Assembly: GCA_015228785.1 (NCBI GenBank)
Contig: JADGCU010000004.1
Span: forward strand, 1-57,847
Reading direction: 5' to 3'
DNA length: 57,847 bases
Origin: Candidatus Omnitrophota bacterium
Lineage (GTDB): Bacteria > Omnitrophota > Gorgyraeia > Zapsychrales > Fredricksoniimonadaceae
Made by a program: the position numbers and the translations under genes
Shown here: positions 16,593 through 31,181 of the stretch, one piece after another
Layout: every line of letters starts with the position of its first letter
Position numbering within the stretch: the stretch's first letter is position 1
The notes under the pieces: model-generated
The model's database searches: none
What the model was told of the DNA's origin: nothing
The model's input: the letters and a program-made list of their open reading frames with translations, nothing else

Positions 16593-19058
16593 ATGAAATC
16601 CCGATTTTATCTGTTTCTTCATTTAATATTAACAATATTAGTTATTAATATTCAACCTGCTTTTTCTGAAGGGTCTAGCGAGAAGGAGCTGTTTGTCGTT
16701 GCTCAGAGGGCCTTTGAAGATGGGTTTTATGATGTTTCTCTCCGTTATGTAGATCAACTTATCAAAGAATTCCCCCAAACGAAAAAATATGTTGAAACAC
16801 GCCTTTTGGAAGGGCAGTGTTATTTTTTCAAGAAACAGTATTTAAAAGCTTTTAATGTTTTTCAAGAGCTTACGAGGCATACAGAATATAAAGATGTGAC
16901 GCTCTTTTGGCTGGGAGAGACTTATCTTAAGGTTGGTGATCATGCCAAGGCGCAAAATCAATATAAAGAGCTGATTCAGATATATCCCACTTCTCTTTAC
17001 GCGGCGCAGGGGTATTATTCTTTAGGGTGGAGTCTTTTTGAAAAAGGGGATTATGAGAGCGCCAGGAATAACTTTGTAAAGCTTGTCGAATTGTATCCTT
17101 CCAACAATCTGGCTGAGGACGCTGCTTTTAAGGCCGGTGAATGTGCTTATAACGCTGGACAATACGAAGGCGCTGTTTTTCAGTTTCAGAAGTTTATTCA
17201 AACCCATCCGAATTCTCGAAAGGTTTTTGACGCCAATTTTAATATTGCGGAAGCATTTTATTATCTCGATCAGTACGATAAGGCGAGCGGAGCTTATCGA
17301 AAGGCGTTGGAGGGGGTTCGGGATTCTAAGGAAAAGCTGAGTGTTTTAGTAGGCCTTGGATGGTCTTTTTTTAAAGCAAACAAATTTGATGAAGCTATTA
17401 AGGCGTTTGATGAGGCGCAGGCACATGCTAAAGCGAGTAATATTGCGGAGGATGAGATTCTTCTTGGTAAAGCAAGCCTTTTTTCGGCGCAAGATAAACA
17501 GAATGATGCGTTAATGAACTATTCTGATTTGATCGATCGGTTTCCGCAAAGTTTGCGCATTGCTGAGGGCTATTTGGGGCGCGCGAACACGTATTATCTT
17601 CTAAATGATTATCCTAACGCAATTAATGATTATAAGAAAATTCTTGATCTTTCTTCTTCCCAAGCGAAGGGATCGGAAATACTTGAGAAGGCACGTTTTG
17701 GTCTTGCGTGGACATATTTAAAGAACGGCTCTTTGGATCAATCGATTGAGAGTTTTAAGGGTGTTCTTGAAAAGACGCAAAGTAAGACTGTTAAGGTGAG
17801 CGCTATGACGCAGATTGGCGATGCTTATCAGGAAGCAGGTCAGGTCGATAATGCTATTGAGACATATGATAAAATTTTGAAAGAAATGCCTGACACGCCC
17901 TATTCTGATTATGTCCAGCATCGACTTGGCGTGGCTCTTTTAAAGGCAGGACGGATTGATACGGCTATTTTAGCTTTTCAGTCTCTTCAGGCAAATTATC
18001 CTAAGAGTAAGTTTATTATTGAATCAAAGTACTACTTAGGTGCAGCATATTTTAAAAAACATGATTGGGCGGGGACAATCCAGGTTCTTGAGCCGTTTGT
18101 CGCGGAAAATCCTCGCGACAATGAATTCTCCGCAGAGGCCTCTTATTTAATCGCGTTAGCGTTTTTTAATCAAAAACAATACGATGAAGCTCTAGAAATT
18201 TTTAATGAGTTGTTGAAATTGTATCCCGACAAAGAGACGCTTTCCCAGAATGTTCAATTAGGCATAGCTAAGACAAAATATGAAATGGGGAATTTTAAAG
18301 ATGCTTTGGCGATTTTTAAGGAAATTGATTTTCGTTTTCCAGGAACAGATGTTGCGTTAGAGTCGCTCATGTGGATGGGGCAACATAACATGGTTTCAGG
18401 GATATACGAACGAGCGTCGGAGAACTATCTTAAGGCGATAACAGATTTTCCCAAGAGTGACAAGAGGGATCTTCTTCATTTTGAATTAGGACGGGCTTAT
18501 CATGCGCAAAGCAAATTTGATAAAGCTTTAGAACAGTACCGTCAGGTTAAGGGGGAGTTCTCAGCAAAGGCTAAACTCGCAATTGCTGAGATTTTCTCAC
18601 AAGAGCTTGACCCTGAAAAAGCCATTGAGATTTATCAGAGCATTATTGCGACAAGCCCTGAATTTAAGCGCGATGCCCTTGTTAAGATTGGTCAAGTTTA
18701 TCGTAAGCTGAATAAACATGTTGAAGAAATCAAGGCTTATGAAGAGGCTCTTTTAGAACCATTAGGGGTTTGTCAGGTTATTAATGCGGAGATTCAATTT
18801 TTGATTGGAGATACGTACGAACTTATGAATGAAGTTGATAAGGCGGTGGAGGTCTATTTTAAGATCCCCTATGTATATGTTAAAGAACAAGTGTGGGTCG
18901 TTAAGGCGTATCTTCGAATTGCTAGGATTTATGAAAACAAGGAAGATTGGGAAAAGGCATTGGCTGCGTATGGTAAAGTCGTGGAGCTTAAAGTTGATGA
19001 GTCAAAGTTTGCCGAGGAACGGATGTCGCGCATCAATAGTGCGCGAAATTTAAAATGA
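16593..19058 (+). CDS. secreted multi-TPR repeat protein
   Basis: Signal-peptide-like N-terminus MKSRFYLFLHLILTILVINIQPAFS|EG, followed by about 800 aa of recurring TPR-like A..Y/F...A helix pairs. I prefer ATG 16593 to the TTG at 16548. Confidence 0.8.
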   Translation: MKSRFYLFLHLILTILVINIQPAFSEGSSEKELFVVAQRAFEDGFYDVSLRYVDQLIKEFPQTKKYVETRLLEGQCYFFKKQYLKAFNVFQELTRHTEYKDVTLFWLGETYLKVGDHAKAQNQYKELIQIYPTSLYAAQGYYSLGWSLFEKGDYESARNNFVKLVELYPSNNLAEDAAFKAGECAYNAGQYEGAVFQFQKFIQTHPNSRKVFDANFNIAEAFYYLDQYDKASGAYRKALEGVRDSKEKLSVLVGLGWSFFKANKFDEAIKAFDEAQAHAKASNIAEDEILLGKASLFSAQDKQNDALMNYSDLIDRFPQSLRIAEGYLGRANTYYLLNDYPNAINDYKKILDLSSSQAKGSEILEKARFGLAWTYLKNGSLDQSIESFKGVLEKTQSKTVKVSAMTQIGDAYQEAGQVDNAIETYDKILKEMPDTPYSDYVQHRLGVALLKAGRIDTAILAFQSLQANYPKSKFIIESKYYLGAAYFKKHDWAGTIQVLEPFVAENPRDNEFSAEASYLIALAFFNQKQYDEALEIFNELLKLYPDKETLSQNVQLGIAKTKYEMGNFKDALAIFKEIDFRFPGTDVALESLMWMGQHNMVSGIYERASENYLKAITDFPKSDKRDLLHFELGRAYHAQSKFDKALEQYRQVKGEFSAKAKLAIAEIFSQELDPEKAIEIYQSIIATSPEFKRDALVKIGQVYRKLNKHVEEIKAYEEALLEPLGVCQVINAEIQFLIGDTYELMNEVDKAVEVYFKIPYVYVKEQVWVVKAYLRIARIYENKEDWEKALAAYGKVVELKVDESKFAEERMSRINSARNLK

Positions 19059-19073
19059 TGAGAAAAGAAATAT

Positions 19074-19742
19074 ATGTCTATTGTTGAGATCGCTCCCTTT
19101 CAATTGTTCCTGAAAGGCGGACCTATGATGTGGCCACTCCTATTGTGTTCTATTTCTTCTTTAGCGATTATATTCGAAAAAGCTTTCTTCTTTTCTTCTG
19201 TAGAGAAGGAAATATTAGTTCTTAAGGATCAAGTTATTGGGGCGGTCCGTAAAGGGGATATGAAAGCAGCGGTAGCGTTTTGTGATGCGGTTAATTCGCC
19301 CTTATCGGGGATATTAAGAGCCGGGCTTCTTCATTTTGGTAAAGGAAAGACGGAAATCAAGGATGCTATGGAGGGAGCAAGCTCTGCTCAAGTGAATTTC
19401 TTAGAACAAGGGGTATCTTTTCTTGGTGCCCTAGGTAGCGTTGCTCCTCTTTTAGGATTTCTGGGGACTATTATGGCAATGGGGTTATCTATGCGAACGT
19501 TTCAATTGCGTCTCCAGGCCATGAACCCTGCGGCGTTTCAGGACATCGTGGGAGATGTTTGGGCGGCGCTAATTACGACGGCTTTTGGGCTATTGATTGC
19601 GATCCCGATTTTTCTCGCGTATCATTATTTTACAAGTCGCATTTTTGACATTGTTTTTCAGATGGAGCGCGCCGCCATGGATCTAACAGTTGCTTTAATG
19701 GATCTTTCTGGGACATCATCTTTGGAAGGGGATGAGGCGTGA
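19074..19742 (+). CDS. MotA/TolQ/ExbB-family proton-channel protein
   Basis: GGPMMWPLLLCS first helix and SVAPLLGFLGTIMAMG...ALITTAFGLLIAIPIFLAYHYF C-terminal helices are typical of the family. Confidence 0.88.
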   Translation: MSIVEIAPFQLFLKGGPMMWPLLLCSISSLAIIFEKAFFFSSVEKEILVLKDQVIGAVRKGDMKAAVAFCDAVNSPLSGILRAGLLHFGKGKTEIKDAMEGASSAQVNFLEQGVSFLGALGSVAPLLGFLGTIMAMGLSMRTFQLRLQAMNPAAFQDIVGDVWAALITTAFGLLIAIPIFLAYHYFTSRIFDIVFQMERAAMDLTVALMDLSGTSSLEGDEA

Positions 19743-20140
19743 ATTTCCGGAAATTTATTAAGACAGCACATCCTTTTAGTGCGAATCTTGTTCTGCCTTT
19801 GAACATTATTTTATTGGCGATTTTTTCTTTGTTTTTAATGTTTTTTTTGTCAGTATCATCTAAGATTGATATAAAGCTCCCGCGAGCGGTGACGAGTGAT
19901 ATTTTTAATGACGATAACATTACCATTATTCTTACAAATGAGAATATCATGTACCAGAATGGTCGTGTTGTTTCTATTAATGATTTGCGAGGATTCTTGA
20001 GTCGTTTGAATAATCGTAAGCGGCCGATTTTGATTAAAGTGGACCGTCGTGCATCTGTGGGACGAATTGTTGATATTTGGGATCTTGGTCGAAGTTTGGG
20101 GATAGAACGCATCAGCATCGCGACCGATCAGGGGGAGTGA
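19739..20140 (+). CDS. ExbD/TolR-family protein (atypical: the TM helix has Asn and no acidic residue)
   Basis: 133 aa with a single TM helix (NLVLPLNIILLAIFSLFLMFF) followed by the periplasmic pattern IKLP...ILIKVDRRASVGRIVDIWDL. GTGA overlap with the upstream gene. Confidence 0.8.
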   Translation: MNFRKFIKTAHPFSANLVLPLNIILLAIFSLFLMFFLSVSSKIDIKLPRAVTSDIFNDDNITIILTNENIMYQNGRVVSINDLRGFLSRLNNRKRPILIKVDRRASVGRIVDIWDLGRSLGIERISIATDQGE

Positions 20141-20144
20141 GGAC

Positions 20145-20576
20145 GTGATACAGTGGGGACGCTCTTTTTATGCCCTTAGTTTTTCAGTATTTATTCATAT
20201 AGTCTTTCTGGGGCTTTTTGTTTTATCCTGTAGGGGGGAAGTTAAAGATTTTAAGATTGATTTCTTCTTTTGGGGAGGCATCTTGAGGCATCAGGAATTA
20301 TTACCAGTGTTATCAGATGAAAGTCAGAACGATGGGCGTGTTCGTATAGATTCGCCATCTGCAATCTGGGCGCCAGTTCAGATGGTTGCGTGGAGGCTTG
20401 GATCGTCTGTAGAAAAACCGGAATTATTTAAGGTAAGGGAAGAGGATAAGAGTCTTCCTTCAAAATTTATGACGGCTCGTGTTGAATTGGATGTACAAGA
20501 TCAGTTAATTTCTAAAGACTCACAACTTGGTATTCCTGAAGCTCCGAAGGTGTATTTTCGACGGCCAGAACCATGA
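20145..20576 (+). CDS. hypothetical membrane-anchored protein with a TonB-type N-terminal anchor and no TonB C-terminal domain
   Basis: The anchor SFSVFIHIVFLGLFVL resembles the E. coli TonB S-x3-H anchor (LLSVCIHGAVVAG). The remaining ~110 aa have no Pro-rich spacer or recognisable TonB_C. It lies 4 nt after the exbD-like stop. Confidence 0.55.
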   Translation: MIQWGRSFYALSFSVFIHIVFLGLFVLSCRGEVKDFKIDFFFWGGILRHQELLPVLSDESQNDGRVRIDSPSAIWAPVQMVAWRLGSSVEKPELFKVREEDKSLPSKFMTARVELDVQDQLISKDSQLGIPEAPKVYFRRPEP

Positions 20577-20821
20577 TACACTGTGATCTTTTAACAGCGA
20601 TTGCATTCTTTCTAAGCGTGTTGATATTTGTTTTTTTTGGTGTTTGGTTTTTTTATGTTTTTAAACGTAAGTTTATTAATGTTCAAGATAAAGGGCCGAT
20701 AGAGCAGTGTCCCTATTGTGGCAATATGATATCGGATCATTCGCGCAAAGGCATTCTAATTTGTTCAGTGTGTCATAGCTACCTGGAGGTCAGGAATGAG
20801 AATCACGGGAAAAAGAAATGA
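20573..20821 (+). CDS. hypothetical small membrane protein with a C-terminal CxxC...CxxC zinc ribbon
   Basis: 82 aa with an N-terminal TM helix (LLTAIAFFLSVLIFVFFGVWFFYVF), then CPYCGN...CSVCHSY. ATGA overlap with the upstream ORF. Confidence 0.55.
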   Translation: MIHCDLLTAIAFFLSVLIFVFFGVWFFYVFKRKFINVQDKGPIEQCPYCGNMISDHSRKGILICSVCHSYLEVRNENHGKKK

Positions 20822-21107
20822 GTCGGGTATTGTGTTGATTGCTGTTGTGGCGTTTATTGTTGTTGTGAGCGTTATGATCTTGGGGATCATGAGTCGCAAT
20901 GCTTCTCAAACAGTTTCTGTTGAGGAGCAAGTGCGGCATATTCAAGCGGAACAATTAAGAAAGGGTGCCATGTGGGTGGCAAAGGCAAAAGAAGATAGGA
21001 ATGAAGGTTTACCGGAAACTATTATTGAAAAACTTGGTGACGGAAAAGACTTTTCTATTTATTTCTCAAAGACAGGTCGTAAAACGAATATTAATGTGAG
21101 TTATTAG
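20796..21107 (+). CDS. PilX_N/GspK-like pseudopilin-like protein
   Basis: 103 aa. The N-terminus NESG|IVLIAVVAFIVVVSVMILGI looks like a pseudopilin hydrophobic helix without Glu+5, as in GspK/PilX. GGAGG lies upstream. It overlaps the previous ORF by 26 nt. Confidence 0.5.
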   Translation: MRITGKRNESGIVLIAVVAFIVVVSVMILGIMSRNASQTVSVEEQVRHIQAEQLRKGAMWVAKAKEDRNEGLPETIIEKLGDGKDFSIYFSKTGRKTNINVSY

Positions 21108-21189
21108 AATTTCTGATTTTTTTCAGGAATGAATTTTTATTAAATGACTTTCAGGTCGCGAATTATTCAATAATTTTTTATTGTTAAAT

Positions 21190-22746
21190 ATGATAAGACA
21201 AAAAAAGCTGGGGATTTACTGGGGGCAAAAGGGGCTCAGTCTTGTTGAAATCAACAAGAATGAGATGGTTATGTTTTCTGCGATCTCTTTTGATTCTCTG
21301 GAGAAGAATCCTATTGTGGGGATCAAGTCTTTGGCTGATGATCCACGTCTTTTGGATCTTATTCAGACTTCTTATCGTTCCGCTCGATTTTCAACAATTG
21401 ACACTTGTTTTTCTTTGCCGTCTAAAGATATTATTATTCGTTGGTTTACAATTCCTTGGATGAAGCCATCGGAAATCCAGGGTGTTGTTGTTTTTGAAGC
21501 AAGAAAGTATATTCCTTTTCCGTTAGAGGATCTTTTTTTTACATATTATCCTTCCGTGTTTTCGAAAGGAGGGGTGCGCCAGGTTGGTATTTCATTCGTC
21601 GCCATTCGTAAAGCTACCTTTAATACGTATTTAACAGTTCTACGACAATCCGGGTTGAATGTTGTTTACGCAGAGCCCTCTGCTCTTAGTCTTGTTCGTT
21701 CTTTAGCCTTCAAGAGATTAATTGATACCACTCTTGTTACTGCGATTATTAATTTTTATCAGGATTCCGCTGAAATTGTTATTACGTCTAAGGGGCACGT
21801 TCGATTTATTCGGGATTTTAAAATATCGCTTGCTGATGAGAATTTATCTGAAGAACAAAAAGGACTTGTTCGGGCCAAGATGTTTAACGAAGTTAAAATG
21901 TCTCTTGATTTTTACGCTCGGCAACAGTCAGACGCTGATGTCAAAAGTGTTATCACGGTTTCTTCTGGAGTGAATAAGGAGATGTGGAGTGGACTTGGGG
22001 AGGACTTAGGGATTGCGATCCGCCACGTAGACCTTGTGGCAATCTTTGATAAGGCCATTTCCTCAAACGAGGGGCACGTGTACGCCTTAGGCACCGGCTT
22101 ATCTGGTGGGGTCCCATCCGTTGTTGATTTGGACCTTTGTGAAGATCAAGGGGCGGCCAAAGAAATTCGAGCATCAGCAGCACCGATTAAAGCCGGGACA
22201 TTAATTTTTTCTATTAGCGTGATTCTTGTTTCTGCGGCAATTTTCTTCTTGGCGAATGTTTGGTCACAATTGTTTCTTACAGAGCGGGAGGCGCAGAAAA
22301 TTGCTATTGTACAAATCTTGGGCCCTTACGCAGAAAAGCCACTTGAAACAATTCTTACGGAGAAGGGCACGGAAATTCAAAATCTTACGACTATTAGGTC
22401 GTTAAAACTTCGTAGTACTGCGACGTCTGCTCTTGTTCGTTTAATCAAGAGCATTCCTGAGGGTGTGTGGTTTCAGGGGATTTCTTTCTCTATAGACCAA
22501 GAATCGGAATCTGGCAATGTAGGAGAAAGAGGCGCAACGATAAAAGTGACTAGTTCAATGACGATTGAGGGAAATGTTTATTTGAATAGTACTAATGCAG
22601 AGTTTGAGGCGGCTAGTCGTTTTGTGGATGTTTTAAAAGATGACAAGGCTTTTTCGGGATTGTTTACAAATATTAAACTAAAATCGTCGAAGAAAGTTAC
22701 GTTAGGTAAGATCCAAGCGACTGCGTTCGTTATTAATTGCGAGTAA
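21190..22746 (+). CDS. PilM-PilN fusion protein (actin-like cytoplasmic domain, TM helix, periplasmic PilN-like domain)
   Basis: The PilM-like motifs SLPSKDIIIRWFTIPWMKPSEIQGVVVFEARKYIPFPLEDLFFTY and VVYAEPSALSL are followed by a TM helix (LIFSISVILVSAAIFFLANVW) and about 150 aa of periplasmic domain. Confidence 0.75.
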   Translation: MIRQKKLGIYWGQKGLSLVEINKNEMVMFSAISFDSLEKNPIVGIKSLADDPRLLDLIQTSYRSARFSTIDTCFSLPSKDIIIRWFTIPWMKPSEIQGVVVFEARKYIPFPLEDLFFTYYPSVFSKGGVRQVGISFVAIRKATFNTYLTVLRQSGLNVVYAEPSALSLVRSLAFKRLIDTTLVTAIINFYQDSAEIVITSKGHVRFIRDFKISLADENLSEEQKGLVRAKMFNEVKMSLDFYARQQSDADVKSVITVSSGVNKEMWSGLGEDLGIAIRHVDLVAIFDKAISSNEGHVYALGTGLSGGVPSVVDLDLCEDQGAAKEIRASAAPIKAGTLIFSISVILVSAAIFFLANVWSQLFLTEREAQKIAIVQILGPYAEKPLETILTEKGTEIQNLTTIRSLKLRSTATSALVRLIKSIPEGVWFQGISFSIDQESESGNVGERGATIKVTSSMTIEGNVYLNSTNAEFEAASRFVDVLKDDKAFSGLFTNIKLKSSKKVTLGKIQATAFVINCE

Positions 22747-22750
22747 TATT

Positions 22751-23407
22751 ATGGCTATGAAACCTATACAGTTTAAAGGGGGGAAGAAGGCTAAGCCTGG
22801 CTCTGATAGTGGCGAGGATGTGTCTCTTTTAAAGTGGCTTCGAAAGTTTGATATTGGTTTTTTTCGATATCTTTTACATGAGCGGCAATTTGAAGCGGGT
22901 GCGGTGATGGTTGCGGTCGTCTTCATTTTTCTGGCCTCTGGTATTGTTATTACTCGACTTAATAAAGTAGCTGATCTAGACCGGCAGATTATTGATTTGA
23001 CGGCTAAAAAGCTACCCGTTGAAGTTAAAAGAAAGGTTCTTCAGGAAAAGAAGGATTTTTTAACTAAGGCGGCTCCTGGACTTCCAGAAAAGAAATTTAT
23101 TTCTTTTCTGACGGGATTAGCTGAAAAGAGAGGCATTATCATATCAGAGTTCGAACCAGTTACTGTGCAGAATAAAGACTTTTATTCAACAACAAATATT
23201 AGTTTTTCATGTTCAGTTTCTTCTTTTTCGAAAGCCCTTTTATTTCTGAAAGACTTAGAAACGTCTCCGTATTCTCTAAAAATAAGATTTTTACGTCTTT
23301 GGGGACGGGGTTCCATGGATTTAGGACCTGGCAATATTCCTGTTCAGCAGGAAACGCCAGTACAAATAAACGTCAAGCTTTCTTCACTTATTTTGCTTGT
23401 TAAATGA
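22751..23407 (+). CDS. PilO/GspM-like inner-membrane pilus assembly protein
   Basis: Architecture is a basic N-terminus, one TM helix (AVMVAVVFIFLASGIVI), a coiled segment and a C-terminal alpha/beta domain (FEPVTVQNKDFYSTTNISFSCSVSSFSKALLFLKDLE). It sits between pilMN and the secretin. Confidence 0.6.
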   Translation: MAMKPIQFKGGKKAKPGSDSGEDVSLLKWLRKFDIGFFRYLLHERQFEAGAVMVAVVFIFLASGIVITRLNKVADLDRQIIDLTAKKLPVEVKRKVLQEKKDFLTKAAPGLPEKKFISFLTGLAEKRGIIISEFEPVTVQNKDFYSTTNISFSCSVSSFSKALLFLKDLETSPYSLKIRFLRLWGRGSMDLGPGNIPVQQETPVQINVKLSSLILLVK

Positions 23408-25502: not shown

Positions 25503-27224
25503 ATGGCGCGTTTAAGGCTGGGTGAGATCCTTATTAAACAAGGGCTCATTACAGAGGCACAGCTTCAAGAAGCGATCGAAGCCCAAAAGGTCGAGAAGCT
25601 TCATATTGGTGAGATCCTTGTTAATCGGCAAATGATTAAAGAAGATGATCTGGCCTCTGCCTTGGGAACTCAACTTCTCATCCCCTACGCATCTCGCGCT
25701 TCAGGCCTTCTATCGCCACAACAGGAGCAGGGACTAGACAAGCTTGTTCCTTTTGATTTTGCCAAGACTAATTTTATTCTGCCGCTCAACCGCACCATTA
25801 ATTCATTAACTTGTGCGATCTTTAATCCCTTTGACCTTATGATGATCGACAATCTTAAGAAATTAACTGGTTGTGAGATTAACTTTGTGATCGCCACTCG
25901 CACCGATATCATGAAAGGCATTGATGAATTTTATGGTGGGAATACGGTTGATGGTAAGGGAGGCGCTTTATGGGGTGACGCGCTCGAGATTTCCAAATCT
26001 TCTCTATCTGAAACAATAAAGATCGATGATGGATATGATTCAGATCTGAGCCTTGATCGAGTTATTGCCAGGGCAGAAGAAGCTCCCGTTATCAAGCTCG
26101 TTGATCTGATTATTCGTCAGGCGATCGATGAGCGGGCGAGCGATATCCATATTGAGCCTTTTAAAGATAAATTGGAAGTTCGTTATCGTATTGACGGTGA
26201 GCTTTATCAGATCCCGCCTCCGGCCAAACATTTGCATCTTCCTATTGTTTCGCGCGTTAAGATTCTTGCTAAGCTTGACATTGCGGAAAGACGGTTGCCG
26301 CAAGACGGGCGTATTTCAGCAACGCTTGAGGAGCGCACTGTTGAGCTTCGTATCTCGACCTTACCGACAGTCTGGGGGGAGAAGGTTGTAATGCGTATTC
26401 TTGACAAGGATGCTGTAAAGCTGGATCTCGGGGTTCTTGGGTTTGACGCAAAACAACTTGATTTGATCCGAAAGGCCCTAAAAACGCCTTATGGACTTTT
26501 CTTTGTCACAGGGCCAACGGGAAGTGGTAAATCGACAACGTTATATTCTTGTTTGCGTCATGTCCAAGATCCGTCGTTGAATATTATGTCCGCAGAAGAT
26601 CCTGTTGAGTTTAGGATAGACGGGATCAATCAGGTACAGATTAGGCCTGATATTGGATTTACCTTTGCCGAGGCCTTGCGTTCTTTTTTGCGTCAGGATC
26701 CAGACGTCATCATGGTCGGTGAGGTGCGCGATCTTGAAACAGCCCAAATTTGTGTGCGTTCTGCGTTGACGGGGCATTTTGTTTTGAGCACTCTTCATAC
26801 TAATGACGCTCCCTCGGCTATTCAACGTCTTTTAGATATAGGGGTTCCTTCTTATTTGTTAACGCCTTCTTTAACGATGATCGTGGCACAAAGATTGGCA
26901 CGAAAACTTTGTTTGGATTGCAAGGAACCTTATGAGCCGAAAGAGGAAGAGTTGGGAGATCTTAAGTTGTCCACCGATCTTATTTATAGGGCCAAGGGAT
27001 GTGATAAATGTTCCCATACTGGATATAGAGGGCGACTGGTTATTGCTGAAATCATTGAGGTCGACGATGAAATTCGAAACATTGTCAGTAAAAATGGAAC
27101 TTACACTGAATTGAGAGATGCGGCTCGAAAGAATGGGATGGTCACATTATTTGAATCAGGGATTAAGAAAGTTGAGGAAGGCGCAACGAGTCTTGAGGAA
27201 GTTTTAGGTGTTACTTTAGGATAG
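25503..27224 (+). CDS. pilB: GspE/PilB-family assembly ATPase with an N-terminal MshEN-type domain
   Basis: Walker A GPTGSGKSTT, Walker B DPDVIMVGEVRD, His box LSTLHTNDA, and the tetracysteine CLDC...CDKC. The N-terminus carries two tandem RLG..L...G.I....L...L..Q-like motifs. Confidence 0.93.
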   Translation: MARLRLGEILIKQGLITEAQLQEAIEAQKVEKLHIGEILVNRQMIKEDDLASALGTQLLIPYASRASGLLSPQQEQGLDKLVPFDFAKTNFILPLNRTINSLTCAIFNPFDLMMIDNLKKLTGCEINFVIATRTDIMKGIDEFYGGNTVDGKGGALWGDALEISKSSLSETIKIDDGYDSDLSLDRVIARAEEAPVIKLVDLIIRQAIDERASDIHIEPFKDKLEVRYRIDGELYQIPPPAKHLHLPIVSRVKILAKLDIAERRLPQDGRISATLEERTVELRISTLPTVWGEKVVMRILDKDAVKLDLGVLGFDAKQLDLIRKALKTPYGLFFVTGPTGSGKSTTLYSCLRHVQDPSLNIMSAEDPVEFRIDGINQVQIRPDIGFTFAEALRSFLRQDPDVIMVGEVRDLETAQICVRSALTGHFVLSTLHTNDAPSAIQRLLDIGVPSYLLTPSLTMIVAQRLARKLCLDCKEPYEPKEEELGDLKLSTDLIYRAKGCDKCSHTGYRGRLVIAEIIEVDDEIRNIVSKNGTYTELRDAARKNGMVTLFESGIKKVEEGATSLEEVLGVTLG

Positions 27225-27280: not shown

Positions 27281-28507
27281 ATGCCGAAATTTCTTATCAT
27301 ATCAAAAGATCGTGAAGGAACCCAAGAGACGGGGGTTGTTGAGGCTGCTGATCTCGATAAGGCCGTCCTTTCTATTCAGACTCAGGGACGATTTGTTGTG
27401 ACGGTTCAGCCCTTTGATGCGGAAGATATTTCCCGTATGCAGAGTTCAGGCATGTCTACGAAGCGGAAGTTTGCGCGAACAGGTGTCCGCATGATGGACG
27501 TTGTTTCTTTTGCTCGTCAATTGGCGACGATGCTAGAGGCAGGCGTTCCTCTTTTACGCAGTATTTCTGTTATTGAAGAGCAGGTTTCCAGCAAAAAGCT
27601 TTCTGTCGCTCTTTTATCGATTAAGGGCGATATTGAGCAAGGGGAAACGTTTAGTAAAGGACTTAGTAAGTATCCTACTATTTTTGGACAGTTTTGGGTG
27701 AGCCTCGTTGAGGTCGGAGAGGCCTCTGGAACATTGCCGAACATTCTTACCAAGCTAACATCTTATATAGAAGACGCGGCACGATTCCGCGCCCAGGTTA
27801 TTGGTGCTTTAATTTATCCCGCGATTTTAGCTTTTGTATGTATGGGAGCCGTTGTCTTCTTTGCTTTATTCGTTGGCCCAACTTTTGAAAAGGTTTTCAA
27901 AGATATGGGGACGGAATTACCTATGTTGACCGTTGTCATGCTTGCGATCTTTAAATTTCTAAAACAGAATTTCTTTCTGATTATTTTAGGAATGGGGGCG
28001 GTCGCTTATGCTTTGGCCTTGTATATTAAGACGCCTCGAGGACGCTGGCAGTACGAGTCTTTTATATTTAATCTTCCTGTTTTAGGTGAAATTGCCCGTG
28101 AAATTGTTATTGAACGGTTTGCTTCACAACTGGCTGTCTTGGTCGAAAGCGGTGTGCCTATTCTTTTTGGCCTTGATATTACAGAACGACTTGTTGAAAA
28201 TTCTATTTGTGCGCAAGTTATTCGCGATATACGTGAGGCAGCCCGTGAAGGACAGCTGTTGGCAGATCCTATGAGTTTAAGTGGGTTTTTCCCACCCATG
28301 ACGGTTCAGATGGTCAAAGTAGGAGAGGAGACTGGAGAATTGGCCAAGATGTTGGGGCATGTCTCAAGGTATTATAAGCAGGATGTTGAGGAATTTATGA
28401 AAAGGTTCTCAACCGTTATTGAGCCTATCATGCTTGTTGTGATGGGGATCATTATTGGCACCATTGTTATTTCTATGTTTTTGCCTTTATTCAATCTTTC
28501 AGGATAA
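27281..28507 (+). CDS. pilC: GspF/PilC-family inner-membrane platform protein
   Basis: 408 aa with a duplicated T2SSF pattern (FARQLATMLEAGVPLLRSI / FASQLAVLVESGVPILFGL; VEVGEASG / VKVGEETG) and three TM segments. Confidence 0.93.
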   Translation: MPKFLIISKDREGTQETGVVEAADLDKAVLSIQTQGRFVVTVQPFDAEDISRMQSSGMSTKRKFARTGVRMMDVVSFARQLATMLEAGVPLLRSISVIEEQVSSKKLSVALLSIKGDIEQGETFSKGLSKYPTIFGQFWVSLVEVGEASGTLPNILTKLTSYIEDAARFRAQVIGALIYPAILAFVCMGAVVFFALFVGPTFEKVFKDMGTELPMLTVVMLAIFKFLKQNFFLIILGMGAVAYALALYIKTPRGRWQYESFIFNLPVLGEIAREIVIERFASQLAVLVESGVPILFGLDITERLVENSICAQVIRDIREAAREGQLLADPMSLSGFFPPMTVQMVKVGEETGELAKMLGHVSRYYKQDVEEFMKRFSTVIEPIMLVVMGIIIGTIVISMFLPLFNLSG

Positions 28508-28724: not shown

Positions 28725-28733
28725 TGGTATTAT
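28725..28733 (+). promoter_or_regulatory. candidate extended -10 promoter element for the major pilin gene
   Basis: TGGTATTAT (TGnTATTAT) lies about 26 nt upstream of ATG 28759, with the GGAGGA RBS at 28749-28754 in between. There is no convincing -35. Pattern match only. Confidence 0.3.
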
Positions 28734-28758
28734 ATTTTAATAATAATTGGAGGAAAAT

Positions 28759-29178
28759 ATGAAGAATAAAGGGTTTACACTTATTGAAATCATCATTGTT
28801 ATCGTTATTTTAGGCATCATGGCATCCTTGGCTCTTCCCAAAATTACCTCAACAATTGGAAGAGGTAATATTCCGCAAGGATTAGAAGTTATGGGTAAAA
28901 TCCAAAGGGAGATGGATCAGTGCGCTCAAATGGCAGCAACATCTGAGTGCGATTCGTTTGCCGAGTTGGGGTATACTGCTGATGTAGATACTGGTGGTAC
29001 CTATTCGAAAAATGGATGGGATTATACCGTATCGACTACTAATATACAAGGAGTCTGTACAAAGTGCAGTCCAAACGGCACTATTACTTTTACTATAACA
29101 TCAGCTAGCAATGATGGGGTAACGATTAATACTCAAGATGCTTCTGGAGCATTCGCTGGATTTAAGTTTAAGAATTAA
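28759..29178 (+). CDS. type IV prepilin, probable major subunit
   Basis: Canonical class III signal MKNKG|FTLIEIIIVIVILGIMASLALP (Gly-1, Phe+1, Glu+5). It is the first pilin gene, has its own long upstream region, and is followed by a strong terminator. Confidence 0.9.
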   Translation: MKNKGFTLIEIIIVIVILGIMASLALPKITSTIGRGNIPQGLEVMGKIQREMDQCAQMAATSECDSFAELGYTADVDTGGTYSKNGWDYTVSTTNIQGVCTKCSPNGTITFTITSASNDGVTINTQDASGAFAGFKFKN

Positions 29179-29190
29179 TGGTTTTTAAAA

Positions 29191-29235
29191 GGACCCTCCC
29201 TTGGCAGTTATCATGTTAAGGGAGGGTTCTTTCTA
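29191..29235 (+). terminator. rho-independent terminator/attenuator after the first pilin gene
   Basis: ACCCTCCCTT (29193-29202) pairs perfectly with AAGGGAGGGT (29218-29227), followed by TCTTTCT. Confidence 0.75.
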
Positions 29236-29244
29236 AGGATTAAA

Positions 29245-29673
29245 ATGAAGGGCGTGTTAGGAAGAAAAAACATGAAAGCTTTTACACTTGTTGAAGTTAT
29301 CATTGTTGTTGTTATTTTAGGAATCATTGCGGGCCTTGGGGTTCCCATGATTGCAGGTCCTTCTTTGGAAAAGGCATCGTTCTCTGAAGCCCTTCATCAA
29401 CTGACCTCTTACGTAACTGCGGAAAAATCTTATTATTTTGATAATAATTCTCAGTATGCTGGACTTTGTGGGAAATTGGATGTAGATGTTTATTTTAAGG
29501 GTTTTGACAGTATTGATTGTAGTGCTGGGGGTATACCAGGGGTGATATCGATCAGGCGCAGTGAAGGGCCTGAAGCGGGTTATCATGTCAAGGTTGACGC
29601 CACTAAGTCTCCTCCGGAATATAAATGTAATGACTGTCCTCTATATTTACAGAAACTTTTACCACAAAATTAA
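29245..29673 (+). CDS. type IV pilin-like protein (Ala at -1)
   Basis: N-terminus ...NMKA|FTLVEVIIVVVILGIIAGLGVP. The alternative start ATG 29272 would give the short leader MKA. Four Cys lie in the C-terminal half. Confidence 0.85.
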   Translation: MKGVLGRKNMKAFTLVEVIIVVVILGIIAGLGVPMIAGPSLEKASFSEALHQLTSYVTAEKSYYFDNNSQYAGLCGKLDVDVYFKGFDSIDCSAGGIPGVISIRRSEGPEAGYHVKVDATKSPPEYKCNDCPLYLQKLLPQN

Positions 29674-29696
29674 TCCTGATACGAGAAGAAGGACCT

Positions 29697-30107
29697 ATGG
29701 TTAAAGTCATGAATATTCATCAGAAGGCGTTCACCTTAGTTGAAATATTGATCGTGATCATCATTGTGGGGATCGTTGCCGGATTTGGGATTCCGAATTT
29801 TTCAAAATCTATAGGAAGGTCCAGGGTCAGGGATGCGATGAACAATCTTTCTGTTATTCATGCGGCTAACGCTATTTATGAAGTCAGGAACAATGCTAAT
29901 GTTTCCGGAGATCTTGATGCTATTAATGATAAGCTTAAGTTGAATATTATATCATCCGGAGGGACAATATATCAATGTTCCACTGGCATATGCACCGCGA
30001 CTTCTGCGGCAGGCACGAGTGATTTCGTGGTCACAATGAACCTTAACGCGGCACTAGAGAAAACGAATTTAGTTTGTTCGCCTTCTAGTTCTTCTTCATG
30101 TCCGTAA
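29697..30107 (+). CDS. type IV pilin-like protein (Ala at -1, Ser-run C-terminus)
   Basis: N-terminus MVKVMNIHQKA|FTLVEILIVIIIVGIVAGFGIP. The C-terminus is ...VCSPSSSSSCP. Confidence 0.85.
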   Translation: MVKVMNIHQKAFTLVEILIVIIIVGIVAGFGIPNFSKSIGRSRVRDAMNNLSVIHAANAIYEVRNNANVSGDLDAINDKLKLNIISSGGTIYQCSTGICTATSAAGTSDFVVTMNLNAALEKTNLVCSPSSSSSCP

Positions 30108-30157
30108 CATGTTTTTATAAGAACAGGGCGTTTTGTTATTCCTAAAGGGTTGTTAAT

Positions 30158-30520
30158 ATGTATATGCGTAACATAAAGAAAAGCGTTAAAGCCTTTTCTA
30201 TGGTTGAGGTCATCGTGGCTTCCATTATTTTAATGACCACAATTACGCTTGTTTTTGGCACTATAGCCAATACGCGAAAGCCCGTTGTTGTGTCTACTCG
30301 TAAGCTTCGGGCAGCGACTTATGCGCAAGAAGTCCTTGATACCCTTCGAACACGCGTAAATGATAGTGAATGGAATAACGCAACTGTTCTTAAGGAGGGG
30401 GACCATTATCTCAATGAGATCCTTGCTGCTCCAACAGGTGTTAGCGGAACGTATAAGATTAAAGATGAGAATGGATTTAAGAAGGTCACGGCTAATGTCA
30501 CATACAACGATGATATATAA
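30158..30520 (+). CDS. minor pseudopilin-like protein (GspI/PilV-sized, Ala at -1)
   Basis: N-terminus ...KSVKA|FSMVEVIVASIILMTTITLVFG with Glu+5. 120 aa. Confidence 0.75.
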   Translation: MYMRNIKKSVKAFSMVEVIVASIILMTTITLVFGTIANTRKPVVVSTRKLRAATYAQEVLDTLRTRVNDSEWNNATVLKEGDHYLNEILAAPTGVSGTYKIKDENGFKKVTANVTYNDDI

Positions 30521-31181
30521 GGTGGGATCTGATAGGTCTGTCTTTTTATCTCGCGGCCTTACCTTGTCAGAACTTTTAATCGCCACAACTATTGTTACTG
30601 TTGTCCTTTTGGGACTGGGGGTTGCCGGTGTTGCGATGAAAAAGATGGATACCGGTTATGTGCGTGATACCGCCCTCTATATGAAGTTGGCTGCTATAGG
30701 GGAAGATATTCGTCTTTCTGCTTTAGAGGCTCGCGGTACACGGAAGGATCCAGGTATTTTTGTAGATTCTTCGATATATAAAATGTGTTTTCGTTACCGC
30801 ATAACAGAGGATCCTAATGTAAAAGATTGGCGTTGTTATTCTTTTTTGCCCGATGAGTCGCCTCAAACAAAATTTTATTCTTGTAATTTGTACGAGCCCG
30901 GAGCATGTACGGATAAAGGCCGCAGGACGTATCTGGGAGATCTCAATCAAGATGTTTTTTCAACTTCTGGTTCTAATAAATATTGTAATGCTCCCACTTT
31001 TGATGCGTCTCTTAACACGGAAGATCATAATCTCAGGTTTAAATTGATCGTTCGCGAGGATAATACGTGTAAGAAATGCGGAGCTTCCCCAAGTTGCCAT
31101 GAGCGTTTAAATAATGGGACAGAAGATAATTCTCAGGAATGGATTGAATATACCATTTATCCAGAGGCCCACAGTTTTTGA
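30510..31181 (+). CDS. large Cys-rich minor pseudopilin-like protein (GspJ/PilW-like size)
   Basis: ATG 30510 gives MIYKVGSDRSVFLSRG|LTLSELLIATTIVTVVLLGLGVA (Gly-1, Glu+5) and overlaps the previous stop by 11 nt. The ORF-track extension back to 30360 is in a frame overlapping the previous pilin and is not credited. Confidence 0.75.
   Translation: MIYKVGSDRSVFLSRGLTLSELLIATTIVTVVLLGLGVAGVAMKKMDTGYVRDTALYMKLAAIGEDIRLSALEARGTRKDPGIFVDSSIYKMCFRYRITEDPNVKDWRCYSFLPDESPQTKFYSCNLYEPGACTDKGRRTYLGDLNQDVFSTSGSNKYCNAPTFDASLNTEDHNLRFKLIVREDNTCKKCGASPSCHERLNNGTEDNSQEWIEYTIYPEAHSF

What the first reader, a model, noticed from the sequence alone, without database searches (positions are those of the whole stretch)
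16593..31181. An Exb/Tol-like membrane module is packed tightly against a PilMNOPQ-PilB-PilC-pilin machine
Seen: 18 consecutive + strand genes, with gaps that are zero to a few tens of nt, apart from the 251-nt pilin leader. There are start/stop overlaps at 19739, 20573, 20796, 23404 and 30510. The genes encode, in order:
- a secreted multi-TPR protein;
- a MotA/TolQ/ExbB-family channel;
- an ExbD/TolR-family protein;
- a protein with a TonB-type anchor;
- a TM plus zinc-ribbon protein;
- a GspK/PilX-like pseudopilin;
- a PilM-PilN fusion;
- PilO-like and PilP-like proteins;
- a secretin;
- a GspE/PilB ATPase;
- a GspF/PilC platform;
- five prepilins.
The pseudopilin-like gene at 20796 physically overlaps the last gene of the Exb-like block, so the two modules are translationally contiguous rather than merely adjacent. 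Established: ExbBD/TolQR stators use proton-motive force to act on the outer membrane through a TonB/TolA-type partner, while type IV pili and T2SS are driven by cytoplasmic ATPases. As I recall, a genetic link between a TonB paralog and twitching has been reported in Pseudomonas (tonB3). I know of no described system in which the two are fused into one operon. Inference: the Exb-like unit may be a dedicated accessory of this pilus or secretion machine, for example in secretin gating, pilus retraction or substrate uptake. No PilT-type retraction ATPase, prepilin peptidase, TonB-dependent receptor or canonical TonB C-domain is present in the window.
Basis: partly seen in the sequence, partly recalled or inferred. 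Interest (0 to 1): 0.8.

Follow-up and report, generated by a model that had tools for sequence, protein, structure and literature searches.

The report
Exb/Tol cassette inside Omnitrophota pilus cluster
In an uncultured Omnitrophota bacterium, four genes resembling the proton-driven Tol/Ton membrane motor sit inside the gene cluster for a type IV pilus machine; the arrangement is kept across the phylum and I found no description of it, but in this organism the motor's key acidic residues are gone.

Summary
Window 16593-31181 holds 17 (not 18) tightly packed + strand genes:
- a CpoB/YbgF-type TPR protein;
- TolQ/ExbB-like and TolR/ExbD-like proteins;
- a 143-aa protein with a TonB/TolA-type S-x3-H anchor and no TonB C-domain;
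- a TM + zinc-ribbon protein;
- a PilX-like minor pilin;
- a PilM-PilN fusion, PilO, a PilP/GspC-HR-like protein, secretin, PilB, PilC and five prepilins.

The organism is an Omnitrophota.

The four-gene Exb cassette is a monophyletic lineage. It was present in 47 of 62 pilus loci of different species. Sampled the other way, through ExbD, 34 of 35 loci had PilMN just downstream. One clade lost all four genes together.

Two cautions apply. Unrelated housekeeping genes (UvrA, PanC, AspDH, RsmE) are conserved neighbours too, so synteny alone does not prove a shared function. Also, the window's ExbD has Asn in place of the universal membrane Asp, and its ExbB has Ala in place of the TM3 Glu. This derived state recurs in several lineages and goes with faster evolution.

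Best reading (about 0.5): a dedicated accessory of the pilus machine, comparable to PocAB-TonB3 of Pseudomonas. It was ancestrally proton-driven but acts as a scaffold rather than a motor here.

Main rival: an independent Tol-like envelope system. I rate it a new variant of a known kind.

The parts
16593..19058 (+). Secreted 821-aa TPR protein built of about 8 CpoB/YbgF-type TPR units
   Evidence: Pfam TPR_6/TPR_2 at 1e-70. TIGR02795 tol_pal_ybgF at 261.7 bits (cut-off 90.1) in 8 stretches. Signal-peptide-like N-terminus. Present in 59 of 62 related loci, including those without the Exb cassette.
19074..19742 (+). TolQ/ExbB-like channel subunit. The likely start is the ATG at 19125, as in database protein P0001. 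TM3 has Ala164 where relatives have Glu.
   Evidence: PF01618 at 83.9 bits. Best NCBIfam hit is TolQ. Best solved structures are TolQ at 4e-10, then ExbB at 6e-5. Monophyletic with the other pilus-linked copies. Residues.
19739..20140 (+). TolR/ExbD-like subunit with Asn22 (codon 19802-19804) at the position of the universal membrane Asp
   Evidence: PF02472 at 53.6 bits. Alignment with 56 relatives, with a canonical ExbD from an ExbB-ExbD-TonB_C operon (L001), and with E. coli ExbD and TolR.
20145..20576 (+). 143-aa bitopic protein: TonB/TolA-type anchor (Ser14-x3-His18), conserved F(L/W)GSIL motif, and a C-terminal motif that reads PLRL in most relatives and is degenerate here (YFRR); no TonB C-domain
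   Evidence: Family alignment. hhalign to the N-terminus of a real TonB, with the S..H motif aligned. No TonB_C in 47 members. 38 relatives among 1.84 billion representatives, nearly all 130-160 aa. In the AF2 model only the TM helix is confident.
20573..20821 (+). 82-aa protein: N-terminal TM helix and a predicted cytoplasmic CxxC...CxxC zinc ribbon
   Evidence: Weak Pfam zinc-ribbon hits. The four Cys (46, 49, 64, 67) and 'QCPYC ... CPxCxSY' are conserved in 58 loci. Overlaps the anchor gene in 45 of 53 species.
20796..21107 (+). 103-aa PilX/GspK-like minor pilin. It overlaps the zinc-ribbon gene by 26 nt.
   Evidence: Weak NCBIfam GspK N-terminus hit. PilX_N in 14 of 40 family members. The family alignment shows a G-hydrophobic helix and an RIQAE motif. 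Kept upstream of PilMN in loci that lack the cassette.
21190..22746 (+). PilM-PilN fusion protein
   Evidence: PilM_2 at 9e-8 and PilN at 0.002. TIGR01175 pilM at 2e-13. 247 relatives in GTDB species genomes, almost all labelled Omnitrophota.
22751..23407 (+). PilO-like protein
   Evidence: No Pfam hit alone. The family profile matches M. xanthus PilO (3jc8) at 1.1e-8.
23404..23940 (+). PilP/GspC-HR-like protein (secretin-binding beta-domain)
   Evidence: T2SSB at 4.5e-6, below the cut-off. In the AF2 model the C-terminal domain has pLDDT 86-89. Best folds are GspC HR (TM 0.80 over 64 columns), GspB, PilP and PulC HR.
24007..25491 (+). Short secretin (N0/STN, one N domain, secretin domain)
   Evidence: Secretin at 1.6e-37, plus Secretin_N and STN. 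GspD and PilQ models score equally, both below their cut-offs.
25503..27224 (+). PilB/GspE-type assembly ATPase with an N-terminal MshEN c-di-GMP-binding motif
   Evidence: T2SSE at 4e-138 and MshEN. TIGR02538 pilB at 616 bits; NF053729 at 59 bits against a cut-off of 38.
27281..28507 (+). PilC/GspF platform protein
   Evidence: T2SSF at 6e-54 in two stretches. GspF at 343 bits and PilC at 300 bits, both below their cut-offs.
28759..29178 (+). Major prepilin (MKNKG|FTLIEI), behind a 251-nt leader
   Evidence: N_methyl at 4.8e-9. TIGR02532 above its cut-off. Sequence read.
29245..31181 (+). Four further prepilin genes (29245-29673, 29697-30107, 30158-30520, 30510-31181)
   Evidence: N_methyl on three. 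An XpsI/ComGE-like N-terminus on the 30158 gene. Cleavage motifs read.

Best explanation
The region is the phylum-conserved type IVa-pilus-like gene cluster of an Omnitrophota bacterium. At its 5' end, between a CpoB-type TPR gene and a PilX-like minor pilin gene, lies a four-gene cassette of its own lineage: a TolQ/ExbB-like protein, a TolR/ExbD-like protein, a short TonB/TolA-type anchor protein, and a TM + zinc-ribbon protein.

I infer that the cassette is a dedicated inner-membrane accessory of the pilus machine. The nearest functional parallel is the PocA-PocB-TonB3 complex that Pseudomonas needs to make and place type IV pili. In this reading an ExbB5:ExbD2-type complex holds the anchor protein through its S-x3-H helix. 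The anchor's periplasmic tail and conserved C-terminal motif contact a periplasmic part of the machine: the secretin N0 domain, the PilP-like protein or the TPR protein. The zinc ribbon faces the cytoplasmic side. None of these contacts has been shown.

In most species the complex keeps the membrane Asp and Glu and is probably proton-driven. In the window's lineage both are replaced (ExbD Asn22, ExbB Ala164), so here it most likely acts as a static scaffold or tether and not as a motor.

Shown: gene content, conservation, monophyly, loss as a unit, and the residue changes. Inferred: physical association with the pilus machine and the mode of action.
For: - Domain identities.
- Taxon and conservation: PilMN relatives are almost all labelled Omnitrophota. 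The order TPR-ExbB-ExbD-anchor-Zn-PilX-PilMN holds in 47 of 62 species loci with enough upstream DNA.
- Reciprocal sampling through ExbD in metagenomes: 34 of 35 loci with downstream DNA have PilMN within 3.5 kb, 53 of 53 have ExbB upstream and 34 of 34 have the TPR gene.
- The pilus-linked ExbB proteins form one clade that excludes 117 other ExbB hits.
- The four genes are absent together in one clade of the PilB tree. That clade keeps the TPR gene, the PilX-like gene and the pilus genes, and carries a small wHTH gene in the slot.
- Gene overlaps: anchor/Zn in 45 of 53 species and Zn/PilX-like in 37 of 57.
- The anchor has a TonB-like S-x3-H helix and never a TonB_C domain. It is a stable protein of about 140 aa.
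- Asp/Asn states, the correlated loss of the ExbB Glu (23/7 against 4/22), and lower ExbB/ExbD identity among Asn-type species at equal PilB divergence.
- Precedent: PocAB-TonB3 is required for type IV pilus production and placement, and a TonB3-PilQ N0 contact has been proposed (PMC5285504; PMC6321873).
- No defence-system match.
Against: - UvrA (48 of 51), AspDH (38 of 48), PanC (35 of 48) and RsmE (27 of 43) are conserved neighbours too. The whole window is one co-directional housekeeping run. Conserved order can therefore be inherited synteny without shared function.
- In many species a small HTH gene and 200-400 nt separate the PilX-like gene from pilMN, so two transcription units are possible.
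- The cassette's closest families are Tol-type: TolQ is the best hit and the TPR protein is of YbgF type.
- A whole clade does without the cassette, and many lineages have lost the Asp, so it is not essential to the pilus.
- There is no expression, interaction or structural evidence.
- The trees are neighbour-joining, midpoint-rooted and without support values.
- The correlation test is not corrected for phylogeny.
Confidence: 0.5

Rival explanations
1. An independent Tol-like envelope system. The CpoB/YbgF-type TPR protein, TolQ-like, TolR-like and a short TolA-like anchor would serve outer-membrane tethering or cell division. They would lie next to the pilus genes only because this part of the Omnitrophota chromosome is a deeply conserved, co-directional block.
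For: - TolQ is the best NCBIfam and PDB match for the ExbB-like protein.
- The TPR protein scores above the YbgF/CpoB model's cut-off, in 8 stretches.
- The anchor has the S-x3-H motif that TolA shares with TonB.
- Unrelated genes (UvrA, PanC, AspDH, RsmE) are conserved neighbours as well.
- No TolQ, TolB or Pal KO appears for the two Omnitrophota species clusters held in the Seymour supplement, so no other Tol system is evident there.
Against: - No TolB or Pal gene is in the window or the loci.
- The anchor is only about 140 aa, with no long TolA helical domain and no TolA C-domain.
- The TPR gene stays when the cassette is lost.
- A conserved zinc-ribbon TM protein has no Tol counterpart.
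- The cassette is flanked on both sides by genes that stay next to the pilus genes in cassette-less species, and it overlaps the PilX-like pilin gene.
- Frequent loss of the essential Asp is unexpected for a housekeeping Tol motor.
Confidence: 0.3
2. An ordinary Ton energiser. On this reading this ExbB-ExbD pair is the cell's general set. It works with a canonical TonB and TonB-dependent receptors encoded elsewhere, and the local anchor protein is incidental.
For: - At least two Omnitrophota species clusters carry the KOs for ExbB, ExbD, TonB and a TonB-dependent receptor.
- A 2026 preprint reports TonB C-domain proteins in Omnitrophota.
- The gene order ExbB-ExbD-anchor mirrors exbB-exbD-tonB operons such as L001 and L082.
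Against: - The window's ExbD lacks the Asp and its ExbB lacks the Glu, as do many relatives. That would disable a Ton system.
- The cassette is a separate clade from ExbB proteins that sit beside TonB_C genes.
- It carries its own TonB-like anchor and a zinc-ribbon partner in every species.
- It is lost as a unit in one clade.
- No receptor or TonB_C gene lies in the window or any of the loci inspected.
Confidence: 0.08
3. In the window's lineage the cassette is a decaying relic. After losing its ion-binding residues it would have no function and would persist only because deletion has not yet happened.
For: - ExbD Asn22 and ExbB Ala164.
- At equal PilB divergence, ExbB/ExbD identity is 0.36-0.44 between Asn-type species and 0.53-0.66 between Asp-type species.
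- One clade did delete the cassette.
Against: - All four reading frames are intact in every Asn-type species sampled.
- Conserved periplasmic ExbD motifs (LP.AVTSD, TSENI.Y), the ExbB pore threonines, the anchor's His and the four Cys are all kept.
- Asn-type lineages are old enough to have diverged to about 40% identity without any frameshift.
Confidence: 0.1

Closest known systems
PocA-PocB-TonB3 ('polar organelle coordinator') of Pseudomonas aeruginosa
   Same: An ExbB-like, an ExbD-like and a TonB-like protein that are needed for type IV pilus production and placement, not for nutrient uptake. A contact between the TonB-like protein and the secretin N0 domain has been proposed (PMC5285504; PMC6321873).
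   Different: From my own recollection, not checked here: the Poc genes are scattered (tonB3 near pilG, pocAB elsewhere), not embedded in the pilMNOPQ-pilBC cluster, and TonB3 is a TonB paralogue. The protein here is about 140 aa, has no TonB_C and comes with a zinc-ribbon TM partner. Orthology could not be tested because no Poc sequences were on hand.
Tol-Pal system (TolQ-TolR-TolA-TolB-Pal-CpoB)
   Same: TolQ is the best family and structure match. There is a TolR-like partner, an anchor with the S-x3-H motif, and a CpoB/YbgF-type TPR protein encoded next door.
   Different: There is no TolB or Pal. The anchor lacks TolA domains II and III. The TPR protein is about 8 fused CpoB-type units. 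There is an extra zinc-ribbon protein. The TolR Asp is absent in the window.
Ton system (ExbB-ExbD-TonB)
   Same: Gene order ExbB-ExbD-anchor, Pfam MotA_ExbB and ExbD domains, and a TonB-type TM helix.
   Different: No TonB_C and no obvious proline-rich spacer. No receptor nearby. It is a separate clade from ExbB proteins that neighbour TonB_C genes. The Asp is lost in the window.
AglRQS-Glt gliding machinery of Myxococcus, and GldLM of the type IX secretion system
   Same: Precedents for a Tol/Exb/Mot-type stator recruited to power or organise another envelope-spanning machine together with TPR and TonB-like proteins (established knowledge; review PMC9389320).
   Different: The partner machines differ (focal-adhesion gliding complex, T9SS). 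Neither is linked to a type IV filament system. Their stators keep the membrane Asp.
Type IVa pilus machine (PilMNOPQ-PilBC) and type II secretion system
   Same: PilM, PilN, PilO, a PilP/GspC-HR-like protein, secretin, PilB/GspE, PilC/GspF and prepilins are all present. Omnitrophota clusters of this kind were classed as T4aP by Seymour et al. 2023 (PMC10066038).
   Different: PilM and PilN are fused, which gives a GspL-like topology. The secretin is short and has no AMIN domains. The equivalog models for PilB, GspE, GspF and GspD all score below their cut-offs. PilT and PilD are not in the cluster.

Membership tests
MotA/TolQ/ExbB channel family | PF01618 domain above Pfam's gathering score | tested here: met
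   83.9 bits against a cut-off of 22.9. TolQ structures match at 4e-10.
MotA/TolQ/ExbB channel family | Pore-lining Thr in TM2 and TM3, and the TM3 Glu (E. coli ExbB E176 / TolQ E173) | tested here: inconclusive
   Thr132 and Thr168/169 are kept. The Glu position is Ala164 in the window. It is Glu in 23 of 30 Asp-type relatives and in 4 of 26 non-Asp relatives.
ExbD/TolR/MotB stator subunit | PF02472 domain above the gathering score | tested here: met
   53.6 bits against a cut-off of 25.4.
ExbD/TolR/MotB stator subunit | Protonatable Asp mid-way in the single TM helix (the ion-binding site of 5:2 motors) | tested here: not met
   The window has Asn22 (AAC at 19802-19804). The states are Asp 31 (30 pilus-linked loci plus the canonical ExbD of L001), Asn 24 (23 genome loci plus the window), Thr 1 and Ser 1, and in metagenome loci Asp 71, Asn 5, Thr 2. 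The canonical ExbD of L001 has Asp at that column. The role of the Asp is from PMC9389320.
TonB | N-terminal TM anchor with the S-x3-H motif | tested here: met
   Ser14-x3-His18. His is at least 90% conserved in 47 members. hhalign aligns it with the anchor of a TonB_C protein (probability 43%).
TonB | C-terminal TonB_C domain (PF03544) | tested here: not met
   0 of 47 family members match at E <= 0.1. Relatives are nearly all 130-160 aa.
Tol-Pal system | TolB and Pal encoded with TolQRA | tested here: not met
   No TolB or Pal domain in the Pfam-scanned window ORFs. The rest of the genome was not available.
Tol-Pal system | CpoB/YbgF-type TPR protein | tested here: inconclusive
   TIGR02795 scores 261.7 bits against a cut-off of 90.1, but as the sum of 8 repeat stretches in an 821-aa protein. 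The architecture is unlike the roughly 260-aa CpoB.
Ton system | TonB-dependent receptors served by this ExbBD set | not testable with these tools
   None in the window. The KO for a receptor is present in two other Omnitrophota species clusters. The genome of the window organism was not available.
Type IVa pilus system | PilM, PilN, PilO, PilP, secretin, PilB, PilC and prepilins with a class III signal | tested here: met
   The evidence for PilP rests on a fold match with E about 0.03 and TM 0.80 on a 64-residue domain.
Type IVa pilus system | PilT retraction ATPase and PilD prepilin peptidase | not testable with these tools
   Absent from the window and from the roughly 20-kb loci. Both KOs are present in two Omnitrophota species clusters.
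Type II secretion system | GspC/GspL/GspM and a GspD with N0-N3 domains | tested here: not met
   No GspL or GspM hit. The PilM/PilN/PilO models match instead. The secretin has N0 and one N domain only. The PilP-like domain resembles GspC HR and PilP equally.
Poc complex (PocA-PocB-TonB3) | Orthology to PocA, PocB and TonB3; requirement for pilus assembly | not tested
   No Poc sequences were available in the tools. The comparison is functional, from the literature only.
Anti-phage MotAB-like systems (e.g. Zorya) | Match to PADLOC models | tested here: not met
   No hit for any of the cassette proteins.

The most novel reading that the evidence does not exclude
A proton-driven 5:2 stator is an ancestral, integral part of the Omnitrophota type IV pilus machine. 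In Asp-type species, ion flow through the TolQR-like complex would be coupled, via the short TonB-like anchor, to a step of pilus dynamics such as secretin gating, filament rotation or retraction, or uptake through the secretin. That would make it a type IV filament system driven by both ATP and proton-motive force. The Asn/Gln-type variants, including the window's, would be naturally 'locked' versions of it.
Probability: 0.15. Interest if true: 0.9.

Novelty: new variant of a known kind. Interest (0 to 1): 0.6.

Why it matters
How the Pseudomonas Poc complex (ExbB/ExbD/TonB-like) influences type IV pili has stayed unexplained since 2013. A whole phylum in which such a complex is built into the pilus gene cluster is independent comparative evidence that the link is ancient and direct. 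It also supplies natural variants for testing what the complex does: Asp-type, Asn-type and cassette-less lineages.

Omnitrophota are ultra-small, probably predatory or parasitic bacteria, and pili are thought to mediate their attachment to hosts. An extra energy-coupling or tethering module on that machine bears on how they attack or hold on to hosts.

The repeated replacement of the supposedly universal stator Asp, together with the partner Glu, is of interest for the 5:2 motor field. It is a possible case of a motor turned into a scaffold.

Tried and rejected
- Exact-sequence look-ups of the window's ExbB found no record. The contig of the closest relative (70% identity) is syntenic but ends just after the PilX-like gene, and its DNA is not held.
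- The nearest non-Omnitrophota ExbB hits are ordinary exbB-exbD-tonB operons and say nothing about pili.
- The first iterative HMM run timed out.
- The HMM for ORF 20796 drifted into all pilins, so I used positional orthologues instead.
- The anchor protein gave nothing in a profile search of PDB sequences or in Pfam. It gave a poor AF2 model from a 4-sequence alignment (pLDDT 51), so I ran no fold search on it.
- An hhalign of the PilP-like family against the PilO-like family was uninformative.
- The promoter and terminator scan gave counts at chance level, and every terminator-like site lies inside a gene. A sigma-54 promoter in the pilin leader was not convincing by eye.
- No tRNA and no Rfam family occurs in the window.
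- A defence-system reading (Zorya-like MotAB) was rejected.
- A T2SS reading was considered. The PilM/PilN/PilO models fit better than GspL/GspM, but the ATPase, platform and secretin models do not discriminate.
- Literature searches for an ExbB/TolQ link to pili in Omnitrophota found nothing.

Full report
**1. What is in the sequence**

Start/stop overlaps occur at 19739, 20573, 20796 (26 nt), 23404 and 30510. Gaps are 82 nt or less, except the 239-251 nt leader before the major pilin gene.

Profile searches support each assignment:
- A TPR protein, whose best specific model is the CpoB/YbgF TPR of Tol-Pal (TIGR02795, 262 bits in 8 stretches).
- MotA_ExbB at 83.9 bits and ExbD at 53.6 bits, both above Pfam's cut-offs. 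TolQ is the best NCBIfam and PDB match.
- A PilM-PilN fusion.
- A PilO-like protein, which has no Pfam hit by itself but whose family profile matches M. xanthus PilO at 1e-8.
- A PilP/GspC-HR-like protein. The AF2 model of its C-terminal domain has pLDDT 86-89. The best folds are the GspC HR domain (TM 0.80), GspB, PilP and PulC HR.
- A short secretin with an STN/N0 domain, a PilB/GspE ATPase with an MshEN c-di-GMP motif, a PilC/GspF platform and five prepilins.
- ORF 20796 belongs to a family in which 14 of 40 members hit PilX_N.
- ORF 20573 is a TM helix followed by four conserved Cys.

Nearly every + strand ORF of 100 aa or more in the window was scanned against Pfam. The exceptions are two ORFs nested inside longer ones and the two at 10304-11620, which I name HPPK and PanC only from a syntenic relative's annotation. 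The rest of the window is arginine, lysine and histidine biosynthesis, PanC, AspDH, UvrA, RsmE, RecA/RecX, AlaS, SecDF, Mfd, SurA, PdxA, KsgA and the like. There is no PilT, PilD, TonB_C, TonB-dependent receptor, TolB or Pal.

**2. Whose genome it is, and whether the adjacency is conserved**

Homologues of the PilM-N fusion are named Omnitrophica where a name exists. A scan of one genome per GTDB species found 247 relatives, and I fetched the best 80 with 10-kb flanks. Nearly all are labelled Omnitrophota.

I used tblastn and iterated HMMs built from the window's proteins. These show the order UvrA - TPR - ExbB - ExbD - anchor - Zn-TM - PilX-like - PilMN - PilO - PilP-like - secretin - PilB - PilC - pilins - RsmE in species whose PilMN is only 24-41% identical to the window's.

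Of 62 loci with at least 4.5 kb upstream of PilMN, 47 have the cassette and 59 have the TPR gene.

That sample was conditioned on PilMN, so I also sampled the other way. A metagenome scan with an alignment of the ExbD-like proteins gave 228 relatives, of which 80 were kept. Of 35 loci with enough downstream DNA, 34 have PilMN within 3.5 kb. All 53 with upstream DNA have ExbB, and all 34 with more upstream DNA have the TPR gene.

On a neighbour-joining tree, the pilus-linked ExbB proteins form one clade that excludes all 117 other ExbB homologues returned from the 5.8-billion-protein collection. The ones I looked up lie in ordinary exbB-exbD-tonB operons. The cassette is a lineage of its own that is essentially never found away from these pilus genes.

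**3. The cassette behaves as a unit**

Fifteen loci with ample upstream DNA lack ExbB, ExbD, the anchor and the zinc-ribbon gene all together. On a PilB tree they fall in a single clade.

Thirteen of these 15 keep the TPR gene (L039 and L079 show neither UvrA nor TPR upstream), and those for which the slot was read keep the PilX-like gene directly upstream of pilMN. In 12 of the 15, a small winged-helix ORF sits in the slot, and it never co-occurs with the cassette (0 of 55).

The cassette is therefore flanked on both sides by genes that stay with the pilus genes, and it was lost (or, with another root, gained) once as a block. Within the cassette, genes overlap or nearly abut in most species: anchor/Zn overlap in 45 of 53, and Zn/PilX-like overlap in 37 of 57.

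**4. Why synteny alone is not enough**

The same loci also keep UvrA (48 of 51), AspDH (38 of 48), PanC (35 of 48) and RsmE (27 of 43) in place. The whole 57.8-kb window is co-directional with a strongly positive GC skew.

In many species outside the window's clade, a 60-70 aa excisionase-type HTH ORF and 200-400 nt separate the PilX-like gene from pilMN, so two transcription units are possible. The terminator and promoter scans are at chance level and uninformative.

Conserved order and overlaps are thus compatible with an inherited block in compact genomes.

**5. The anchor protein**

ORF 20145 and its 53 positional orthologues are about 140 aa. They have a TM helix carrying Ser-x3-His (His at least 90% conserved), a conserved F(L/W)GSIL motif just after it, a poorly conserved middle with a 'KP', and a C-terminal 'PLRL' motif in most members, degenerate in the window's own protein.

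hhalign places the helix, with the S..H residues in register, on the anchor of a genuine TonB_C protein from an exbB-exbD-tonB operon (probability 43%). No member matches TonB_C.

Among 1.84 billion representatives only 38 relatives exist, nearly all 130-160 aa. It is therefore a stable short protein, not a truncated TonB. Its AF2 model is confident only for the TM helix.

It occupies the tonB/tolA position and probably docks into the ExbB-ExbD complex as TonB and TolA do. That docking is an inference from the shared motif, which is established for TonB and TolA.

**6. A twist: the stator's ion-binding residues**

All characterised members of the family (MotB, PomB, ExbD, TolR, AglQ/S) have an Asp mid-way in the TM helix. 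It is the ion-binding site, and Asn there mimics the protonated state (review PMC9389320).

The window's ExbD has Asn22.

In the 57-row ExbD family alignment the states are Asp 31 (30 pilus-linked genome loci plus the canonical ExbD of L001), Asn 24 (23 genome loci plus the window), Thr 1 and Ser 1. Asn fills almost the whole clade around the window and also appears sporadically elsewhere. In the metagenome sample, which favours conserved sequences, the counts are Asp 71, Asn 5 and Thr 2.

The ExbB TM3 Glu ('GGIWEALLTT', the position of E. coli ExbB E176) is Glu in 23 of 30 Asp-type species but in only 4 of 26 non-Asp species. It is Ala164 in the window. The Fisher test gives p = 5e-6, not corrected for phylogeny.

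At equal PilB divergence, ExbD and ExbB are 53-66% identical between Asp-type species but 36-44% identical between Asn-type species.

The frames are nevertheless intact. The periplasmic ExbD motifs, the ExbB pore threonines, the anchor's His and the zinc-ribbon Cys residues are all kept.

My reading is that the ancestral cassette was a working ion-driven stator. In several lineages, including the window's, it has changed constraint and cannot work as a canonical proton motor, yet it is retained.

**7. What it most likely does**

The closest known biology is the PocA-PocB-TonB3 complex of P. aeruginosa. These are ExbB-, ExbD- and TonB-like proteins required for type IV pilus production and polar placement. 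Their mechanism is unknown, and an interaction of TonB3 with the PilQ N0 domain has been suggested because N0 resembles the signalling domain of TonB-dependent receptors (PMC5285504; PMC6321873). The secretin here has that STN/N0 domain.

I therefore favour a dedicated accessory complex of the pilus machine (about 0.5), ancestrally energised and a scaffold or tether in the window's lineage.

The rivals are:
- An independent Tol-like envelope system (about 0.3). This is supported by the TolQ and CpoB affinities and by the synteny caveat. It is weakened by the absence of TolB and Pal, the tiny anchor, the extra zinc-ribbon protein and the retention of the TPR gene when the cassette is lost.
- An ordinary Ton energiser (about 0.08). 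Canonical TonB and receptor KOs do exist in some Omnitrophota, but a stator without Asp could not serve them.
- A decaying relic in this lineage (about 0.1).

A defence-system reading is excluded.

**8. Novelty**

Seymour et al. 2023 catalogued T4aP clusters in Omnitrophota and noted neighbouring F-type ATPases. West-Roberts et al. 2023 and a 2026 preprint describe T2SS/T4P-like loci near giant genes. None mentions ExbB, ExbD or TolQ next to the pilus genes, and broader searches found no operon-level fusion elsewhere.

Recruitment of Tol/Exb/Mot-type stators to other machines is known (Ton, Tol, flagellum, Agl-Glt, GldLM, Poc). This is therefore a new variant of a known kind and not a new category.

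**9. Limits**

- No whole genome of the window organism was available, so the count of ExbBD sets, TonB, receptors, Pal, TolB, PilT and PilD is unknown.
- There are no transcript or protein data.
- The trees are neighbour-joining, midpoint-rooted and without support values.
- ORF starts in the loci are longest-ORF calls.
- The Poc proteins could not be compared directly.

Noticed in passing
L021:9814-10002, L022:9773-9964, L066:9786-9995 (and 36 other loci); absent from window 21107-21190: A conserved 60-70 aa excisionase/MerR-type HTH ORF (LLDVEELA.YLKL.KQTIYNWL..RKISG.K.GG.WRFDK.EID.WL) lies directly upstream of pilMN in 39 of 74 related loci. That includes all 15 cassette-less loci. It is missing in the window's clade. 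It may be the local regulator of the pilus genes.
   Followed up: partly
L066:8994-9200, L077:8930-9136, L063:8949-9155: In the clade without the Exb cassette, a 68-aa ORF that looks like a winged-helix protein (MIIEIGI.AGEIWHFLDQ...LMSLGWLAREGHV) occupies the slot between the TPR gene and the PilX-like gene. It is present in 12 of 15 cassette-less loci and 0 of 55 cassette-bearing loci.
   Followed up: partly
window 25503-25680: The PilB/GspE ATPase starts with an MshEN-type c-di-GMP-binding motif (NF053729, 59 bits against a cut-off of 38). This suggests that c-di-GMP controls pilus assembly.
   Followed up: no
window 31907-33616 and 33640-35445: Two tandem paralogues (59% identical over 563 aa) just downstream of the pilin genes and RsmE. 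Each has a hydrophobic-looking N-terminal region of about 420 aa with no Pfam family, followed by C-terminal TPR repeats. A glycosyltransferase-like role, perhaps on pilins, is only a guess.
   Followed up: partly
window 1-57847: Every ORF I treat as a gene is on the + strand. GC skew is positive throughout (0.06-0.26 per 2 kb). There is no tRNA and no Rfam match. The window looks like a long co-directional housekeeping stretch on one replichore.
   Followed up: partly
window 52729-53112: A YbgC-type acyl-CoA thioesterase (TIGR02799, 117 bits, below the cut-off of 141) lies 33 kb from the TolQR-like genes. In Proteobacteria ybgC heads the tol-pal operon.
   Followed up: no
window 48167-50077: The Mfd (TRCF) homologue is only 636 aa. 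It has UvrB-interaction, CarD/RID and helicase domains, and no Pfam match C-terminal to the helicase domains (residues about 545-636). E. coli Mfd is, as I recall, about 1150 aa.
   Followed up: no
L012, L002, L037 and about 20 loci labelled 'uncultured Planctomycetales': Contigs with the full Omnitrophota-type syntenic block (UvrA and PilB 75-80% identical to the window's) are deposited under other names: Candidatus Elulimicrobium (Patescibacteria group in NCBI taxonomy), Elusimicrobia, Saprospiraceae and Planctomycetales. These are probably mislabelled or misbinned.
   Followed up: partly
window 13329-13736: A 409-nt gap lies between the Band_7 gene and uvrA. On the syntenic contig of the closest relative an 83-aa ORF is called there.
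   Followed up: no
L053:5800-7687; L043, L050, L054, L058, L059, L068 (about 3200-5000): Some lineages carry insertions of about 1.8 kb between the TPR gene and ExbB (L053) or between uvrA and the TPR gene. The flanks of the cassette are therefore not completely rigid.
   Followed up: no
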